25,186 nt of DNA from a virus, in UHGV virus genome UHGV-1407433; one strand, written 5' to 3'. Positions 1-11,820 of the stretch are shown here, in pieces. The notes under the pieces were generated by a model that saw only the letters and a program-made list of their open reading frames with translations, did no database searches and was not told the origin of the DNA. Numbering within the stretch: position 1 is the stretch's first letter; the number at the start of each line of letters is the position of its first letter. A program made the position numbers and the translations under genes.

Positions 1-530
1 GTAGAGCCGGTCACACACACCGCTGCGCCTAATTTTGCTCCCTCTCCCAAACCAAGTTTTGTGCGAGCGTCTGCGGCATTCGTTGCCCCGGTCCCGCCGT
101 CAGCGATTGCAAGCGCACCATTGCTCCCTTTCTGCGCAAGTTTACCGATGCCTGGGATGGTTACGGCGGTGCCGTTGATGGTAACTGTGATGCTTTGGTT
201 TGCTGAGGTGGTGGCGAACGTCTCCCACGCGCCAATATTCTCGTCGTACTCTTTGATGAGCTGTGACATGGCCTGCGCCAGGCCGTCGACTGAGATATTG
301 TCCGACACAAGGATTCCATACTTCTGGCCGCTCAGCGCCGGGGAAACTGCTGGCGTAACCGTCATTGACGTGGCGCTGTTCACGGATGAAATCTGAAACA
401 GCTGCACCGGGTTAGACATCACGATAATCGTCTGGCCAGCGCGGACCTGGCTGGCGGGAGCTGTCCAGTTTGTGCCGGAGCCGGTTGCGGTATTTCCGTT
501 AATAGAGATAGTTCCGGTGCTATAAATCAT
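1..530 (-). CDS. stf: Side tail fibre protein, N-terminal 176 codons (3' end runs off the window at coordinate 1)
   Basis: Not in the ORF track because the frame is still open at the window edge. ATG at 530..528 preceded by AGGAG (rev-comp of 533-537) at 6-nt spacing. Hand translation gives MIYSTGTISINGNTATGSGTNWTAPASQVRAGQTIIVMSNPVQLF...GGTGATNAADARTKLGLG, a motif typical of phage tail fibre N-terminal domains. Position downstream of J matches lambda order. Confidence 0.6.
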   Translation of the reverse strand, partial: MIYSTGTISINGNTATGSGTNWTAPASQVRAGQTIIVMSNPVQLFQISSVNSATSMTVTPAVSPALSGQKYGILVSDNISVDGLAQAMSQLIKEYDENIGAWETFATTSANQSITVTINGTAVTIPGIGKLAQKGSNGALAIADGGTGATNAADARTKLGLGEGAKLGAAVCVTGS

Positions 531-607: not shown

Positions 608-910
608 TTAATACATGTTGGGCAACGCCAGTGTTGGCATAGCTATAGTTGTATCAAATGCCATTGACCACCCACCCAAATAATAATTGCCGACTACTTT
701 ATTCCTTTCTGCTCTGACATTCCCACCTGTCATTACAATTCCTTTATACCTAATATTTCCGTAACCACCAACGTGTCGACAGTTAGCCCCGGTATAAACA
801 ATCTGGCAAAATTCATCACCAATATTCAGGTTCGCATTGGCGATATTTATTGCCCCATCAAAAATGAATGGCTTCGTGCAAGTAAGAAGACGTTTGCGTT
901 GACGATTGGT
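608..910 (-). pseudogene. Start-less ORF remnant (100 open codons), Gly/Asn-rich, fibre or beta-helix-like C-terminal fragment; probably frameshifted continuation of the frame of ORF 847..1104
   Basis: Hand-translated frame open from stop at 913-911 to TAA at 610-608: TNRQRKRLLTCTKPFIFDGAINIANANLNIGDEFCQIVYTGANCRHVGGYGNIRYKGIVMTGGNVRAERNKVVGNYYLGGWSMAFDTTIAMPTLALPNMY. The only ATG/GTG/TTG start leaves 41 aa. The upstream ORF 847..1104 in another frame ends with a similar rung motif (ILVDGLNKPIVNANV vs IFDGAINIANANL). Confidence 0.35.
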
Positions 911-972
911 TTATTCAATCCATCAACTAAAATACCATGTAAACGAATTGCCATAACATTTCCTACTTTATT

Positions 973-1000
973 TGACTTACTCAACACAACAAGTATATTA
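973..1000 (+). promoter_or_regulatory. Candidate sigma70 promoter for the lipoprotein moron (-35 TTGACT 973-978; -10 TATATT 994-999, 15-bp spacer)
   Basis: Hexamers read by eye about 40 bp upstream of the SD of the 1037..1270 ORF. Spacer is short, so this is tentative. Confidence 0.25.
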
Positions 1001-1036
1001 AAATTGAACCTTGTCAACAACCTAAAAGGAGTCCCG

Positions 1037-1270
1037 ATAAAACGTTCTATTGTAATTTTGACATTAACATTTCTGTTATCTGCTTGCGGTACTGGTTTGG
1101 ACACAGGAAAGCCTAATTCCGGTGTTATTCCAAAACCTTTAGACCGTGACGGTAACGGTTCTTTAATCTATGACACTGAAAAACTGCCTTATACTGGTCA
1201 ATGGTGTCATGAACTCGATCACAATATGCGCCGCATCGGTAGCCCGTCCAACTGTGTAGCTAACTACTAA
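1037..1270 (+). CDS. Small putative lipoprotein (moron), about 77 aa, apparent non-ATG (ATA) initiation codon
   Basis: AAGGAG at 1026-1031, then 5 nt, then codon ATA at 1037-1039 in frame with KRSIVILTLTFLLSAC-GTGLDTGKPNSG... (basic n-region, hydrophobic h-region, lipobox LSAC). Opposite strand to the phage late operon, AT-rich, followed by a hairpin terminator. The ORF-track version 773..1270 starts at GTG and adds an implausible 88-aa extension. Confidence 0.4.
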   Translation: MKRSIVILTLTFLLSACGTGLDTGKPNSGVIPKPLDRDGNGSLIYDTEKLPYTGQWCHELDHNMRRIGSPSNCVANY

Positions 1271-1300
1271 AAAGAAAACCACGCGCGAAGCGGGGTTTTT
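1271..1300. terminator. Bidirectional intrinsic terminator between convergent J and the lipoprotein gene
   Basis: Imperfect GC-rich hairpin AAAACC-ACGC-GCGAA-GCG-GGGTTTT (about 1275-1299) with T-runs on both strands (plus: TTTTTGTTTATT; minus: TTTTCTTTTT), sitting between the stop at 1268-1270 (+) and the J stop at 1303-1305 (-). Confidence 0.55.
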
Positions 1301-1302
1301 GT

Positions 1303-4300
1303 TTATTCAGAGAATGAACCTGAACCGCGCGACACTATGACGGTCGGTGAGTTTATATACGCACCCATACCATTTTGAGCAGATACTCTAATTTTCACTG
1401 TAACCCACCTGCTATATACTGCTGATGAGTGCATCACAAGGCGCTCGGTGCCATCAACGGAAAGATTTTTCTCTGAACCGTTAATGTTTATTGTACACCC
1501 ACCAAAACCTTTTACGTTTGCCATAACGCAGATATGTCTGCTATGTGCTGCGTCAGATGTGTCATTGTATGTGATTGTTTTTTCGAGTACCCCATTATTT
1601 AATCTACTAACGTCAGATCCTGTGTACATGTTTGCAACATCACCGATAAACGAACTTGCTTCCACTGTTCCAGTAAATCTACCGTTGGTTGCATACACTG
1701 TACCTGTGAAAGATCCGTTGCTAGCGTATACAGTACCTCTGACAGTTACGTTGTTGAATTCAGCATCTCCAGCTTTATTCAACTTCCAGCCAGCAGAACC
1801 AGCAACATAATTGTTCGACTGGATAAAATTACCAATCTTTGCGTTGCTGATAGTGCCGTCCTGGATGAAACTGTCCCGGATGAATGTCTGCCCGTTCTGG
1901 ATCACAAACGGTAAAGCCACGCTATTTCCGGCTGCCGTGGTGACGGCGAAGCGATCAGCCAGGAAGATAACCTGCGACTGCATGCCGGATGGCGTATTCT
2001 CCACGCCGATACCCATCCCCGCGGCGTAATACTGCCCGTTGCTGGAGACACCAACCTTGATGTTGTACATCGCGATGAGGTCGCCGTTTACGTTCGCTAT
2101 AGCCTGAGCGTTGGTGGTGATGGCTGAGGTATGCCCGTTCACCGTAGCCGTAATGCCGTTTATCTGCGTGGCCGTTGCCTGCTGATAGTCGGAGAACGTC
2201 TGATTCAGGCTGTTTATGGATGCCTTGTTGCCGTTGACATCCGTCTGCAGGCTCAGCAGAGAGCGCGCCGTTGCCTCCTTCTCGTTAACGATTACCTCAT
2301 CAATACGATCCAGCTGCGCACTGTTACCGGCGACCGTCGCGGAAAGCCTTTTGCGTGTGGCCACCTGCGCCAGCCCGTTCTGGATAATGGCAATGGCTGA
2401 GTTCTTGACCCCGCCCGTCATGCCGTCCATAGACACGCTGATGCTGTCGATTCGCTGGCCCAGCGCGGTATCAGCCGTTGCGACGGTCTGCTCAAGATCT
2501 GATAGAGAGGAAGATACATCACCGACCGTGCTCGAAAGCTCATTAACACTGGTCTGAACCTGCCCAATGTCCTGCGCGTTTTTTGCGATTTCCTGCGCCT
2601 GGAGCTCAAGTTCATCGTTGGCCTGTTTGATGTCGTCAGCCATGCCAGCAATTTTTTCATTGCTGTCCACCGCGTTCTCGATCAGGTCTTTGAACGTATC
2701 GGAGTCTTTAATTTCCTCCAGAATCACATCTGTGATATCGGAAACATCGATGCTGGCCTGTCCTCGCACCCATTCTGTGTACCCTGATTCGTTGCCGCTG
2801 CGGTCCACCAGCTGCGCGCGGTACCAGAAAATCTGCCCAGCCTTAAGGCCCATCTGCTGATATTTGCGCTGCGGGTAAGGCACATCGGCCAGCAGCATGG
2901 CATCGTCTTCAGTACCGGTCAGGCTGTACTGAATTTCCGTCTTCAGCGTGTCGTCGGTATTCGCCTGGAATCCCCAGTTCAGCTCGATACCGAACACCAC
3001 GTTTTCAGAGGCGATAAAGCCAACCGGCTTCGGTGGATTGCCCACTTTACCCGTCAGCGTTTTCTCTTCTGAATAGCCCCATCCGGATGAAATTTCTGCG
3101 GCATTGATTGCGCGCACCCGCACCAGGTAGCGCCCGGCATAAATCCCCGGGACGTCGAATGACGTGGTGGAGGTGCGCGGCACGTTAACCCAGTTCCCGT
3201 CGTTGCGGCGCCATTGCGCTTCATAGGCGATAGCGTTCTGCGCCTGGTCCCAGCTCACGCGCATTGTTTCGACGCTGATATTTTGCTGAACCACGGAAAA
3301 CGAGCTGATCACGATATTCGCAGGCGGCGACTGGTTGCCCGGCGGGATCACGCTCACCGGCCGTTGGTCAATGATGGCTCCGGTATCGATACGGGCATAT
3401 TTATCCGGGTCGTGCCATGCGCCGGTAATCGAGAAAGTGCCATCATTGTTATCGGAAACGCTGACAACACGATACTGCTGCGCGTAAAGCTCGTCAGATT
3501 CAACCACCCAAACAGCTTCGGCCTGTGGCGTCTCACTGTATGCCGTGGTGACTGTGACTGATTCCCCGTTCACGGCCTGAATGGTCCTGCTCTGCGACGC
3601 TCCGGAAGGCAGGTTGAGAATAAGGCGATCACCTGGTGCTGCATCAGCTACGCGGTCAAGTTTGATAACGCGACCGTTAACGGCGCTGATGCGGCCGCCC
3701 ATAACCTTTCCGGAAAGCAGCTCGTCTGCCACGGCGATGATGTAGCCCGGCTGCGGAATGTTTCCGTCCAGCCCGACATCAAACGAAACAACGCGATCCT
3801 TGTTATTGGTGAGAATACCCCAGCGCCCCTTTCGGTTCGCCTCTGACTGCCTGGTGCAGCCGATGGCTGTCATTTCCAGCTGATTGAAGCCGTACCGCGC
3901 CACCAGCGCCTGCTCAAATACCGGCTCCATCGCGTCGGCATAAGCGTTACCCGGGTCTGACCATGAAACCAGCGCTGTGGTGTAGCGGCTTTTGGTGGTG
4001 CTGCCCGAATAGGTAAAGCGCCCATTAACCACGTTTGCACGCGTGTAGCTGTAATCCACATCGCGGGGCATATCCGCCAGCGCAACGATTTGATCGCCAC
4101 CCCAGTACGTCATGCCCCGGAATATCGCCGCAAAATCACGTAACACGGTATAGGCGTCATTCCTCTCCTGCACGTACACGTTACAGGTATAGCGAGGCTC
4201 AGTGCCGCTACCGCCTTTACCATCAGGAACCGGCTGATCGCAATATTGCGCGACCTGATAAAGCGTCCATTTATCAATATTGGCCGCCGTCAGGCGATTG

Positions 4301-5193
4301 CCCAGCCCAAAGCGGTCGCTCACCACCAGATCGTAAAAAATCCAGGCTGGATTATCCGTCCACGCCCACTTAAACGCCCCTGTCCATGTGCCGCTGTAGG
4401 TGCGGGTCTCCGGGTCATACGTATCCGGAACGCGGATTACACGCCCTCGCGGTTCGCAGGATATTTGCGGGATAGAGCCGTTAAACTGGCTTGAGTCGAA
4501 TTCGATGTACAGCAGCGCGGTATTTGGATAACGCAGTTTGGCGTCAATAACCTCTGTGTAGCTCTGCAGCGTCATCGTGTCGCCAATTTTCGCGCTGTTG
4601 GCATCCGCCGTAAGCTTACGCAGGCGCACCGTCCATGTACTGCCTGCCTGTGGTAAATCGATACGATGGCTGCGTTCGTAGCCGGAAGTTGTCTTGCCGG
4701 TTACGCTGGTATTAAGTACCGTCTGCCAGGTGCCGCCATCGGTCTGCAGATCAATAGCGTAGTTAATTGAATAGCCAACCAGATCGCCATCATCCTCCTG
4801 TTTAAAAAGCGATGGCCACTTGAGGCGCAGGCGAACGGCTGACAGTTGCGTGTTGGTAAAGGTATGTGTCCAGCCGGTGGTGCTTGACACTTCGGTGCCC
4901 ACGCTGATTTCATTTTCTGTGCCGGGGATACCCTGAATATATTTTTGTGCCTGAGTCCCCGGACGAAATTCCCACGCCACGCCACTGAAGTTTTGCGATC
5001 CGTCTGCATTCTCCAGTGGCGTGCCATCGAGATAGATATCCTTCGCCGTCAACTGCCCTGCAAATTCGCCCTCTCCCAGTGCAACAAGAATTTTGGCTTT
5101 CGCTACGGACTGGAGATCGTCTGGTTGTTCAGTCGGGGTGCGTGAACTGGAGCTGCCGCCCTTGCGGCCTCTAATCGGAGTAGATGTAGCCAT
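1303..5193 (-). CDS. J: Tail tip / host specificity protein J (central tail fibre), 1296 aa
   Basis: ATG at 5193..5191. Long protein at the lambda J position downstream of I. Conserved J-family core (e.g. ...NPAWIFYDLVVSDRFGLG..., ...GTEPRYTCNVYVQERNDAYTVLRDF...) with a divergent C-terminal receptor-binding region. Confidence 0.93.
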   Translation of the reverse strand: MATSTPIRGRKGGSSSSRTPTEQPDDLQSVAKAKILVALGEGEFAGQLTAKDIYLDGTPLENADGSQNFSGVAWEFRPGTQAQKYIQGIPGTENEISVGTEVSSTTGWTHTFTNTQLSAVRLRLKWPSLFKQEDDGDLVGYSINYAIDLQTDGGTWQTVLNTSVTGKTTSGYERSHRIDLPQAGSTWTVRLRKLTADANSAKIGDTMTLQSYTEVIDAKLRYPNTALLYIEFDSSQFNGSIPQISCEPRGRVIRVPDTYDPETRTYSGTWTGAFKWAWTDNPAWIFYDLVVSDRFGLGNRLTAANIDKWTLYQVAQYCDQPVPDGKGGSGTEPRYTCNVYVQERNDAYTVLRDFAAIFRGMTYWGGDQIVALADMPRDVDYSYTRANVVNGRFTYSGSTTKSRYTTALVSWSDPGNAYADAMEPVFEQALVARYGFNQLEMTAIGCTRQSEANRKGRWGILTNNKDRVVSFDVGLDGNIPQPGYIIAVADELLSGKVMGGRISAVNGRVIKLDRVADAAPGDRLILNLPSGASQSRTIQAVNGESVTVTTAYSETPQAEAVWVVESDELYAQQYRVVSVSDNNDGTFSITGAWHDPDKYARIDTGAIIDQRPVSVIPPGNQSPPANIVISSFSVVQQNISVETMRVSWDQAQNAIAYEAQWRRNDGNWVNVPRTSTTSFDVPGIYAGRYLVRVRAINAAEISSGWGYSEEKTLTGKVGNPPKPVGFIASENVVFGIELNWGFQANTDDTLKTEIQYSLTGTEDDAMLLADVPYPQRKYQQMGLKAGQIFWYRAQLVDRSGNESGYTEWVRGQASIDVSDITDVILEEIKDSDTFKDLIENAVDSNEKIAGMADDIKQANDELELQAQEIAKNAQDIGQVQTSVNELSSTVGDVSSSLSDLEQTVATADTALGQRIDSISVSMDGMTGGVKNSAIAIIQNGLAQVATRKRLSATVAGNSAQLDRIDEVIVNEKEATARSLLSLQTDVNGNKASINSLNQTFSDYQQATATQINGITATVNGHTSAITTNAQAIANVNGDLIAMYNIKVGVSSNGQYYAAGMGIGVENTPSGMQSQVIFLADRFAVTTAAGNSVALPFVIQNGQTFIRDSFIQDGTISNAKIGNFIQSNNYVAGSAGWKLNKAGDAEFNNVTVRGTVYASNGSFTGTVYATNGRFTGTVEASSFIGDVANMYTGSDVSRLNNGVLEKTITYNDTSDAAHSRHICVMANVKGFGGCTININGSEKNLSVDGTERLVMHSSAVYSRWVTVKIRVSAQNGMGAYINSPTVIVSRGSGSFSE

Positions 5194-5245: not shown

Positions 5246-5836
5246 TTATTGCTGGTCTTCGACATAAATCCCGGCAGAAATAATCGCACCGCCGATTTGC
5301 CGACGACCATAAAGAAGCGGTACCGGATAGCCCTGCGCGGCGGTGTTGGTGACTCCACCGAACGCGTATGAGGCGCGGTTATCTGAACTCTGTTTGCTGG
5401 CCAGCCCCGCTGGTTGAGGGGAAAGCATCTGAACAACCCCGCCAATCATCATTGCGGCACCGAATTTGTATAAGAATGGTGATGCCGCAGCCCAGGGTGT
5501 GAAATTAAGCACCGCCCCAACGGCAACCAGAACTGCACCAAGTATTGTCTGGAGTAATCCGGCCTTTTTGCTCCCGATAATCACCGGGACAATGCGAATG
5601 ACATCGCCGGTGACCGGGTAACCCAGGTCATCAACACCAATATTCTTTTTCCCTTTGAATACTGAATAAGTGAGACCACGGCGTTGGCTGGAAATCATAA
5701 ACTGCTCAAAGCCCGGTATAGTCTTTGCCAGCGCAACACTCGCTTCGTTCACGCGGGAAATCAGGCGATGGTGAACTTTACCGAATGTTTTCCCGAGCAC
5801 GCCGCCAAGCTCAATGCGGGTCATTACTTCCTGCAT
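5246..5836 (-). CDS. I: Tail assembly protein I
   Basis: ATG at 5836..5834 with AGGTGA SD. 196 aa with a hydrophobic Gly/Ala-rich C-terminal half typical of lambda gpI family. Position between K and J. Confidence 0.85.
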   Translation of the reverse strand: MQEVMTRIELGGVLGKTFGKVHHRLISRVNEASVALAKTIPGFEQFMISSQRRGLTYSVFKGKKNIGVDDLGYPVTGDVIRIVPVIIGSKKAGLLQTILGAVLVAVGAVLNFTPWAAASPFLYKFGAAMMIGGVVQMLSPQPAGLASKQSSDNRASYAFGGVTNTAAQGYPVPLLYGRRQIGGAIISAGIYVEDQQ

Positions 5837-11269: not shown

Positions 11270-11820
11270 CGTGTCAGAATTAACCTGAGTTGGTTGGTAA
11301 GGGATGCCCGGAGCTCTTTGGGCATATCTGACTCCATGAGCTTCGGCAGTTCTTCTTTAAATGCCGTAGTTAATGGAGCTGCCAGCGGGATGCTGACCAC
11401 TTCAATGGGGTAACGAGGTTTTGAAGTCCGCCTCATGACATGCCAGCGACCATTTTTAAGTTGCTGGATAAAGCCGCCCGGAAAACGAAATGGCCCTATG
11501 CGCAGAACGCTGTTGGCCCCTTTCTTGTCCCGTTTTCTGCGGGAAAGTCGCACGCTTGCGGTACCGAGTTTAATGGCCGGTAAATTTCCCCGGTTTACCC
11601 GGATAAGTGCACGAGGTCTATTGACCGTCGCACGCTTCACCCTGGCGCGTTGCTTTACCAGTTTTCGCGGTACGCGCGTATCTTTTGATACGACTGCCAC
11701 GCTGCGGCTGACGGCCCGGTTTGCCACGCGGTTAACGGCCTGCGCCGATGCCCGCGGAACAGCCGTTTTGCTGATGCTGTTAAGGTTTTCTATGGCCTGT
11801 TCAAGGCCTTTTATGGACAT
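11266..11820 (-). CDS. Z: Tail completion protein Z
   Basis: ATG at 11820..11818. 184 aa, basic protein at the lambda Z position between FII and U. Confidence 0.9.
   Translation of the reverse strand: MSIKGLEQAIENLNSISKTAVPRASAQAVNRVANRAVSRSVAVVSKDTRVPRKLVKQRARVKRATVNRPRALIRVNRGNLPAIKLGTASVRLSRRKRDKKGANSVLRIGPFRFPGGFIQQLKNGRWHVMRRTSKPRYPIEVVSIPLAAPLTTAFKEELPKLMESDMPKELRASLTNQLRLILTR

What the first reader, a model, noticed from the sequence alone, without database searches (positions are those of the whole stretch)
973..1300. Lipoprotein moron downstream of J with consensus SD but ATA at the initiation position
A plus-strand ORF opposite to all tail genes encodes a textbook lipoprotein signal (KRSIVILTLTFLLSAC, lipobox LSAC) and about 60 mature residues, with a candidate promoter and a bidirectional terminator shared with J. 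AAGGAG sits exactly 5 nt upstream of the codon before KRS, but that codon is ATA, not ATG/GTG/TTG. Either initiation is non-canonical, or an ATG-to-ATA change has silenced the gene, or it is a sequencing error. The gene occupies the position where lambda carries lom, a classic slot for host-interaction morons.
Basis: seen in the sequence. Interest (0 to 1): 0.5.

Follow-up and report, generated by a model that had tools for sequence, protein, structure and literature searches.

The report
Phage-exclusion lipoprotein gene with mutated start
This is a small prophage gene from a known family of outer-membrane lipoproteins that stop other LamB-using phages from infecting the cell; its ATG start codon has mutated to ATA, a real and widespread allele that probably cuts expression about 50- to 100-fold.

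Summary
A 77-codon plus-strand ORF (1037-1270) encodes a lipoprotein precursor (lipobox LSAC, Cys17). It has a near-consensus promoter, AAGGAG 5 nt upstream, a two-way terminator shared with J, and ATA where the start codon should be.

The window is a lambda-like prophage of E. coli O68:H12 strain 97.3. The protein matches PHROG 12984 over its full length (E 7e-44). It is 64% identical to mEp010 Lpp010, which has been shown to exclude LamB-dependent phages including lambda. It is 91% identical to the lipoprotein of the LamB-dependent phage KurtStettler. The last ~145 residues of J belong to the same shared module.

All 31 aligned homologues start Met-Lys at this column, and the nearest relatives have ATG. 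ATA is therefore a derived G-to-A change. It is not a sequencing error: 15 independent assemblies carry it, in several prophage backgrounds and two recombinant forms, always with an intact ORF. NCBI already annotates the gene, either from ATA or as an artefactual 165-aa ORF.

AUA initiates at roughly 1-2% of AUG in E. coli, so this is most likely a strong hypomorph. Sequence alone cannot show whether the low expression is selected. Ordinary family, mildly interesting allele.

The parts
972..999 (+). Sigma-70-type promoter, TTGACT-16 nt-TATATT
   Evidence: Matches 10 of 12 consensus positions. The same hexamers are conserved in KurtStettler and in all ATA loci. The ATG-type prophage alleles (Nissle, ABWA45) have TTTACT as the -35 element. 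Promoter function is inferred, not shown.
1026..1031 (+). Shine-Dalgarno sequence AAGGAG, 5 nt before the start position
   Evidence: Read directly from the sequence. It is invariant in all 27 related loci examined.
1037..1039 (+). ATA at the family's start-codon position, derived from ATG by G-to-A at 1039
   Evidence: ATG occupies this column in KurtStettler, Nissle 1917, ABWA45 and a Seuratvirus metagenome contig. Met1 is invariant in all 31 homologues aligned. ATA is present in 15 independent assemblies.
1037..1270 (+). Lipoprotein gene: 77 codons plus stop, a member of the Lpp010 / PHROG 12984 family
   Evidence: PHROG 12984, E 7e-44, residues 1-77 of 77. It is 91% identical to KurtStettler bas22_0021 and 64% to mEp010 gp116. 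GenBank PGAP calls exactly this ORF starting at ATA.
1037..1084 (+). Signal peptide (residues 1-16) ending in the lipobox L-S-A before Cys17
   Evidence: Weak LPAM_1 match, E 0.005, below the Pfam cut-off. Cys17 is invariant across the family. Gly at +2 predicts sorting to the outer membrane; this follows from the Lol +2 rule (established knowledge) and was not tested.
1085..1267 (+). Mature 61-residue domain with conserved PNSGVxP, DTEKLPxTGQWC and RIGSPSNC motifs and two conserved Cys (57 and 73)
   Evidence: Invariant and near-invariant columns, all retained in the window. A disulfide between the two Cys is inferred. The AF2 model was of low confidence, pLDDT 59.
1274..1300 (.). Two-way intrinsic terminator hairpin shared with J
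   Evidence: Folds at -12.2 kcal/mol on the plus strand and -9.3 on the minus strand, with U-runs on both sides. It is annotated as a terminator in mEp010. The window carries a stem mismatch at 1281; the L004 version folds at -18.9 kcal/mol.
1306..1746 (-). C-terminal ~147 residues of J, the presumed LamB-binding domain and part of the same shared module
   Evidence: Strongly similar to the J C-termini of the LamB-dependent phages mEp010 and KurtStettler. DNA similarity to both phages runs from the lipoprotein gene to about 1760 and stops there.
773..1036 (+). Upstream extension of the RefSeq 165-aa ORF (WP_244574249.1); judged an annotation artefact
   Evidence: Annotated. The frame is not conserved: KurtStettler has an in-frame TAA 84 nt upstream, and the Nissle/ABWA45 type has a 1-nt indel that shifts the frame. 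The extension also runs across the promoter.

Best explanation
**What it is.** The gene is a member of the Lpp010 (type-C, PHROG 12984) family of small phage lipoproteins. These lie next to, and are inherited with, the receptor-binding C-terminus of a J-type tail-tip protein that uses LamB.

**How the family works.** The precursor is exported, lipid-modified at Cys17, and sorted to the outer membrane. There it blocks infection by phages that use LamB. This has been shown for Lpp010; how it contacts LamB is not known.

**What happened in this lineage.** The ancestral ATG became ATA through a G-to-A change at 1039. The promoter, Shine-Dalgarno sequence, spacing and whole ORF are untouched. The only plausible product is therefore the normal 77-residue precursor, started by initiator tRNA on AUA at roughly 1-2% of the AUG rate.

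**Conclusion.** The allele is a strong hypomorph, close to null for a protein that must cover an abundant porin. It has spread with its J module among E. coli prophages.

**Shown versus inferred.** Shown here: family membership, linkage to J, the derived and real nature of the ATA, and its spread. Inferred: outer-membrane location, LamB as the target in this prophage, and the size of the expression loss.
For: **Family membership**
- PHROG 12984, E 7e-44, full length.
- All conserved residues of the mature domain are retained.
- The C-terminal 35 residues are identical to Lpp010.
- Lpp010 expressed from a plasmid excluded mEp010, mEp044, mEp554 and lambda, all LamB users (PMC11893012).
- KurtStettler, whose lipoprotein is 91% identical, depends on LamB (PMC8594841).

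**Module linkage**
- DNA similarity to mEp010 and KurtStettler spans the lipoprotein gene plus the J 3' end to about 1760 and then stops.
- The J C-terminal domain is conserved at protein level.

**ATA is derived**
- ATG is found in the nearest relatives, and all 31 homologues start with Met.

**ATA is real and has spread**
- It is in 3 of 5426 complete E. coli genomes, from USA cattle, Chinese pig and Korean swine, at different integration sites.
- It is in 10 of 10 further contigs fetched.
- The index lists 37 contigs for each of the two ways the gene is called.
- There are 7 upstream haplotypes and several J variants.
- A second recombinant form has a different 3' third.

**Initiation rate**
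- AUA initiates at 1-2% of AUG, and 0.02-3% in other constructs (bioRxiv 10.1101/063800).

**No alternative start**
- The in-frame TTG at 1004 lies at or before the predicted transcript start and has no Shine-Dalgarno sequence.
- The TTG at 1058 is 26 nt from the Shine-Dalgarno sequence and would remove the charged N-region.
Against: - No expression or exclusion data exist for this allele.
- A gene that was simply dead might be expected to show further damage. Yet the ORF is intact in every copy seen, and it shows no difference between two haplotypes that differ at 9 of 497 upstream bases. About 4 differences would be expected, giving P about 0.015 under uniform neutral divergence.
- That comparison is weak. 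Ten of the loci were retrieved by exact protein identity, and the region is a recombination mosaic.
- The receptor of this J was not tested. Lpp010 failed to exclude the LamB-dependent phage mEp013, so specificity is not simply 'LamB'.
Confidence: 0.6

Rival explanations
1. The attenuation is adaptive. Low-level translation from AUA is the selected state in lysogens. It would give enough lipoprotein for some exclusion while avoiding the cost of blocking LamB (maltodextrin uptake) or of over-producing a lipoprotein from a strong virulent-phage promoter.
For: - The allele is widespread, has survived recombination, and always keeps an intact ORF, promoter and Shine-Dalgarno sequence.
- In prophages the gene appears in two forms only: strong -35 (TTGACT) with ATA in 15 assemblies, or weakened -35 (TTTACT) with ATG in 7 loci. 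The four virulent Seuratvirus loci have the strong -35 with ATG.
- No ATG copy of this exact allele was found. All 10 contigs returned for the Met-start protein read ATA.
Against: - The pattern rests on about three independent lineages.
- The temperate phage mEp010 keeps ATG.
- The invariance of the coding sequence is partly a result of how the loci were retrieved.
- Hitch-hiking with a successful J module explains the spread equally well.
- No cost of this family to the host has been measured.
Confidence: 0.25
2. The real product is the 165-residue protein annotated by RefSeq from GTG 773 (WP_244574249.1), with the lipoprotein sequence as its C-terminal half.
For: The frame is open from 773 to 1270, and PGAP/RefSeq annotates it in three complete genomes.
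Against: - The extension is not conserved in frame. KurtStettler has an in-frame TAA 84 nt upstream of its ATG. In the Nissle/ABWA45 type a 1-nt indel puts the upstream ORF in another frame, ending in TGA across the ATG.
- There is no Shine-Dalgarno sequence before 773.
- The extension reads through the promoter, and it lies antisense to the DUF6453 ORF and the lateral-tail-fibre fragment.
- The signal peptide would be buried 88 residues inside the protein.
- All 31 aligned homologues put Met-Lys at this column; 30 are 61-83 aa long and one database call (P0018, 104 aa) carries an upstream extension.
Confidence: 0.02
3. The ATA is a sequencing or assembly error, and the gene really starts with ATG.
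For: None, beyond the rarity of ATA starts.
Against: The same base is found in 15 independent assemblies from different laboratories, hosts and continents. These include three complete chromosomes and a Logan assembly of raw reads.
Confidence: 0.01

Closest known systems
Lpp010 (gp116) of phage mEp010, the 'type-C' exclusion lipoprotein of mEpimmI phages (PMC11893012)
   Same: - Homologous over the whole length: 64% identity overall, last 35 residues identical, same conserved motifs and two Cys.
- Same position and orientation next to J, same shared terminator, and the same type of J C-terminus.
   Different: - Different signal peptide, and the first ~20 mature residues differ (the window is Seuratvirus-like there).
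- The host phage here is lambda-like, not mEpimmI.
- The start codon is ATA, not ATG.
- Function has been shown for Lpp010 only.
Lipoprotein bas22_0021 of the virulent Seuratvirus KurtStettler (Bas22) and its Queuovirinae/Dhillonvirus homologues
   Same: - 91% protein identity.
- Promoter, Shine-Dalgarno sequence and the first 131 nt of the gene are nearly identical: only positions 1039 and 1053 differ.
- It lies next to a J-like protein in a phage shown to need LamB.
   Different: - The KurtStettler gene starts with ATG.
- The 3' third differs.
- It is carried by a virulent phage and is followed by an intact lateral tail fibre gene. In the window only a 34-codon stump of that gene remains.
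T5 Llp and Cor of phi80/N15/T1 (FhuA-directed exclusion lipoproteins)
   Same: Same logic: a small outer-membrane lipoprotein, encoded beside the receptor-binding protein gene, that blocks the phage's own receptor (PMC9586334).
   Different: - No detectable sequence relationship. There are no Pfam, NCBIfam or PADLOC hits, and a family profile finds nothing significant in the PDB, which should include the T5 Llp chains reported in PMC9586334; I did not confirm they are in the copy searched.
- The target is LamB rather than FhuA.
- The fold could not be compared (pLDDT 59).
Lambda lom (occupant of the same slot downstream of J)
   Same: Positioned between J and the side tail fibre genes, and encodes an outer-membrane-associated product.
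   Different: Lom is a ~200-residue beta-barrel of the Ail/Lom family, transcribed in the same direction as J. This gene is a 77-residue lipoprotein, convergent with J, with no Pfam match to that family.

Membership tests
Lpp010 / type-C exclusion lipoprotein (PHROG 12984) | Full-length sequence homology to family members | tested here: met
   PHROG 12984, E 7e-44, residues 1-77 of 77. 27 database clusters at E 1e-18 to 1e-38. 64% identical to Lpp010 and 91% to the KurtStettler protein.
Lpp010 / type-C exclusion lipoprotein (PHROG 12984) | Lipoprotein signal peptide with lipobox and an invariant Cys | tested here: met
   L-S-A-C with Cys17, which is invariant in the alignment. Weak LPAM_1 hit. 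Actual lipid modification was not tested.
Lpp010 / type-C exclusion lipoprotein (PHROG 12984) | Conserved mature-domain motifs (PNSGVxP, DTEKLPxTGQWC, RIGSPSNC) and two Cys | tested here: met
   All invariant and near-invariant columns except Met1 are retained in the window protein.
Lpp010 / type-C exclusion lipoprotein (PHROG 12984) | Encoded directly downstream of, and convergent with, a J-type gene whose C-terminus is of the mEp010/KurtStettler (LamB) type | tested here: met
   Gene order. J C-terminal similarity. The shared DNA block ends near 1760.
Lpp010 / type-C exclusion lipoprotein (PHROG 12984) | Canonical start codon giving normal expression | tested here: not met
   ATA at 1037-1039, where all relatives have ATG/Met. 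This affects expression, not homology.
Lpp010 / type-C exclusion lipoprotein (PHROG 12984) | Excludes LamB-dependent phages when expressed | not testable with these tools
   Shown only for Lpp010 itself (PMC11893012).
Cor (phi80/N15/HK022/T1) superinfection exclusion proteins | Sequence homology to Cor | tested here: not met
   The only significant PHROG hit is 12984. The sole other listed hit is a chance signal-peptide match to an Rz-like spanin (E 0.37). Nothing was found in Pfam, NCBIfam or PADLOC at E up to 1 beyond signal-peptide matches.
T5 Llp | Sequence or fold similarity to Llp | tested here: inconclusive
   A family profile search of the PDB gave no Llp hit at E up to 10, so sequence similarity is absent. 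The fold could not be compared because the model had pLDDT 59.
Ail/Lom outer-membrane proteins | Ail/Lom beta-barrel domain | tested here: not met
   No Pfam match. At 77 residues the protein is too short for the barrel.

The most novel reading that the evidence does not exclude
The ATG-to-ATA change is a selected expression 'dimmer'. When a receptor-blocking lipoprotein cassette moved from a virulent Seuratvirus-like phage (strong promoter, strong Shine-Dalgarno sequence, ATG) into temperate lambda-like phages, constant expression in lysogens became costly. Two independent fixes arose: a near-cognate AUA start in one lineage and a weakened -35 element in another. If so, start-codon choice would be a tuning knob for prophage defence genes that trade phage exclusion against nutrient uptake through LamB.
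Probability: 0.2. Interest if true: 0.45.

Novelty: new member of a known kind. Interest (0 to 1): 0.25.

Why it matters
**Practical point.** This is an annotation trap. The same DNA is called as a 77-aa lipoprotein from ATA in GenBank assemblies and as a 165-aa hypothetical protein in RefSeq. Gene callers that allow only ATG, GTG or TTG will miss or mis-extend it.

**Biological points.**
- It places an Lpp010-type LamB-phage exclusion gene in lambda-like prophages. The paper that characterised Lpp010 stated that no lipoprotein from lambdoid phages was known to exclude lambda.
- It documents recent DNA exchange of a receptor module between virulent Queuovirinae and temperate phages.
- If the ATA allele turned out to be a selected low-expression state, it would be a natural example of start-codon tuning of a prophage defence gene. 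The evidence for that is thin.

Tried and rejected
- **Structure.** An AlphaFold2 model built from a 24-sequence alignment reached only pLDDT 59 and pTM 0.28. I ran no fold search, because matches to such a model would be meaningless.
- **PDB profile search.** It found only chance hits, E 0.3 or worse.
- **Pattern scans for the start region.** The scan of viral contigs found nothing. The scan of metagenome contigs found one Seuratvirus-like contig with ATG.
- **Terminator scan.** The simple scan did not call the J/lipoprotein hairpin in the window. Direct folding showed it is present but weakened by a mismatch.
- **Alternative starts.** I considered TTG 1004, ATT 1049, TTG 1058 and GTG 773. 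All were rejected on spacing to the Shine-Dalgarno sequence, position relative to the promoter, loss of the signal-peptide N-region, or lack of conservation.
- **The minus-strand ORF 847-1104.** Only its last 34 codons (951-847) are meaningful, as a stump of a lateral tail fibre gene. It does not compete with the lipoprotein reading.
- **The DUF6453 ORF (608-865).** It is not related to the KurtStettler tail fibre.
- **Neutral-divergence argument.** The coding sequence shows no differences where about 4 would be expected. I judged this suggestive only, because 10 loci were retrieved by exact protein identity and the region is mosaic.

Full report
**1.
- Window 1026-1031 reads AAGGAG, followed by a 5-nt spacer and ATA at 1037-1039.
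- The frame then encodes KRSIVILTLTFLLSAC... through to TAA at 1268-1270. That is 77 codons, with the lipobox L-S-A-C placing the lipid-modified Cys at position 17 and leaving 61 mature residues.
- A promoter-like site, TTGACT-16-TATATT, lies at 972-999 and matches 10 of 12 consensus positions.
- The 32 nt between this stop and the J stop (J = 1303-5193, minus strand, 1296 aa) fold into a hairpin with U-runs on both strands.
- The frame is also open upstream to a GTG at 773, giving a 165-aa ORF.

**2. Where the window comes from.** The region is 100% identical to E. coli O68:H12 strain 97.3 (NZ_CP061758.1). It lies in a lambda-like prophage integrated next to dusA. The rest of the window holds ORFs with the sizes and order expected of a lambda-type tail and head gene set.

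**3. What the gene is.**
- The protein matches PHROG 12984 ('lipoprotein') over its whole length, E 7e-44. Pfam, NCBIfam and PADLOC give only signal-peptide-level hits or nothing.
- Homologues are few: 27 clusters among 5.8 billion proteins and 44 phage records. They occur in Queuovirinae (Seuratvirus, Nonagvirus), other small siphoviruses (e.g. Shigella phage EP23, vB_Eco_Maverick), the temperate mEpimmI phages, and E. coli and Salmonella prophages.
- The alignment shows an invariant Met-Lys start and an invariant lipobox Cys. The conserved mature domain carries the motifs PNSGVxP, DTEKLPxTGQWC and RIGSPSNC, with two further Cys.
- One member has been tested. Lpp010 (gp116 of mEp010), expressed from a plasmid, excluded mEp010, mEp044, mEp554 and lambda, all LamB users (PMC11893012). 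The window protein is 64% identical to Lpp010, and its last 35 residues are identical.
- Its closest phage relative is bas22_0021 of KurtStettler, at 91% identity. KurtStettler is a phage shown to need LamB (PMC8594841).

**4. It is part of a receptor module.**
- DNA similarity between the window and both mEp010 and KurtStettler covers the lipoprotein gene, the terminator and the last ~450 nt of J. It ends near window position 1760.
- At protein level the last ~145 residues of J are strongly conserved with both phages, while the rest of J is not.
- The gene itself is a mosaic. From the promoter to 1167 it is Seuratvirus-like; in 1037-1167 it differs from KurtStettler only at 1039 and 1053. From 1167 onward it is mEp010-like.
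- This fits the published picture of small siphoviruses carrying receptor-binding loci downstream of gpJ together with cognate exclusion proteins.

**5. The ATA.**
- In an alignment of five loci, KurtStettler, Nissle 1917 and ABWA45 have ATG at this column. So do a Seuratvirus-like metagenome contig and two further Seuratvirus contigs.
- ATA is therefore a derived G-to-A transition at 1039.
- It is not an error. Three of 5426 complete E. coli genomes carry it: strain 97.3 (cattle, USA, prophage at dusA), PEC389 (swine, Korea, prophage beside tRNA-Arg/intS) and EC23HZZ201 (pig, China).
- The exact 77-aa protein written with Met, and the 165-aa version, are each on record for 37 contigs. All 10 contigs fetched for the Met-start version read ATA. 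NCBI's pipeline had simply accepted ATA, which is a permitted initiator in translation table 11 (my own knowledge).
- These loci have 7 different upstream haplotypes, J proteins of 1266, 1296 or 1304 residues, and different side tail fibre and integrase contexts.
- A second ATA haplotype has a different 3' third, with 28 differences between 1168 and 1249. The ATA-bearing 5' part has therefore passed through at least one recombination event.

**6. What ATA does.**
- No other start is credible. TTG 1004 lies at or before the predicted transcript start. TTG 1058 is 26 nt from the Shine-Dalgarno sequence and would delete the charged N-region of the signal peptide.
- The 165-aa frame from GTG 773 is not conserved. 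KurtStettler has an in-frame TAA 84 nt upstream. The Nissle/ABWA45 type has a 1-nt indel, so the upstream ORF ends in TGA across the ATG.
- In E. coli reporter measurements, AUA initiates at 1-2% of AUG, and at 0.02-3% in other constructs (bioRxiv 10.1101/063800).
- The most likely state is therefore the normal precursor made at about a fiftieth to a hundredth of the usual level. For a protein that presumably has to neutralise an abundant porin, that should be close to a null. This last step is inference.

**7. Is the low level selected?**
- *For:* the ORF, promoter and Shine-Dalgarno sequence are intact in every copy. The coding sequence shows no difference between two haplotypes that differ at 9 of 497 upstream bases and at 42 of the adjacent 300 bases of J.
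- *For:* prophage copies come either as TTGACT with ATA or as TTTACT with ATG, whereas virulent phages have TTGACT with ATG.
- *Against:* this amounts to about three lineages. Ten of the loci were retrieved by exact protein identity. The region is a recombination mosaic. mEp010 is temperate yet keeps ATG. Hitch-hiking with a successful J module would explain the spread equally well.
- I give adaptive tuning about 0.2-0.25.

**8. Comparison with known systems.**
- Functionally the gene resembles T5 Llp and Cor: a small outer-membrane lipoprotein encoded beside the receptor-binding gene that blocks the phage's own receptor.
- There is no detectable sequence relationship to either. The fold could not be compared because the model had pLDDT 59.
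- It is unrelated to lambda Lom, with which it shares only the genomic slot.

**9. Verdict.** The gene is an ordinary member of a recently characterised family. It carries a real, widespread start-codon down-mutation that public annotation already handles, though inconsistently. It is worth a note for annotators and a simple bench test, and is not a new kind of system.

Noticed in passing
window 847-951 (-): A 34-codon stump of a Queuovirinae-type lateral tail fibre gene, starting MAIRLHGILVDGLNKPIVNANV. It is 66% identical over 29 aa to the N-terminus of KurtStettler bas22_0022 and ends in a stop. It shows that the block was imported from a Seuratvirus-like virulent phage and then truncated.
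   Followed up: partly
window 608-865 (-): PGAP annotates a short 'DUF6453 family protein' here. It is marked partial or pseudo in Nissle 1917 and SZQ1, and it has no canonical start codon before 733. It is unrelated to the KurtStettler tail fibre. Its status as a real gene is doubtful.
   Followed up: partly
window 972-977, compared with L005, L006 and L009-L013: The -35 hexamer is TTGACT in all ATA alleles and in the virulent Seuratvirus loci. It is TTTACT in all 7 ATG-type prophage alleles examined (Nissle 1917, ABWA45 and others). This may be a second route to lower expression in lysogens.
   Followed up: partly
window 1281: An A in the window where the sister ATA haplotype has C puts a mismatch in the shared J/lipoprotein terminator stem. 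The hairpin folds at -12.2 kcal/mol here versus -18.9 in the sister haplotype.
   Followed up: yes
window 773-1270 (+), compared with GenBank assemblies L014-L023: Public annotation is inconsistent. RefSeq gives a 165-aa hypothetical protein (WP_244574249.1) from GTG 773. GenBank PGAP records give the 77-aa 'membrane lipoprotein lipid attachment site-containing protein' starting at ATA.
   Followed up: yes
window 1-530 (-), and L003 1-6000: The side tail fibre gene starts at 530 and runs off the window. Upstream of the window, strain 97.3 has opposed tail fibre assembly genes next to a recombinase-family gene, which looks like an invertible tail-fibre segment. DinI, an integrase and dusA follow.
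   Followed up: no
L008 (PEC389) 11365-11589: The PEC389 prophage that shares the ATA allele carries an extra YebO-family gene between the tail genes K and I. The window prophage lacks it, and the two sequences no longer align without gaps beyond about window position 5500. The ATA module therefore sits in clearly different prophages.
   Followed up: no
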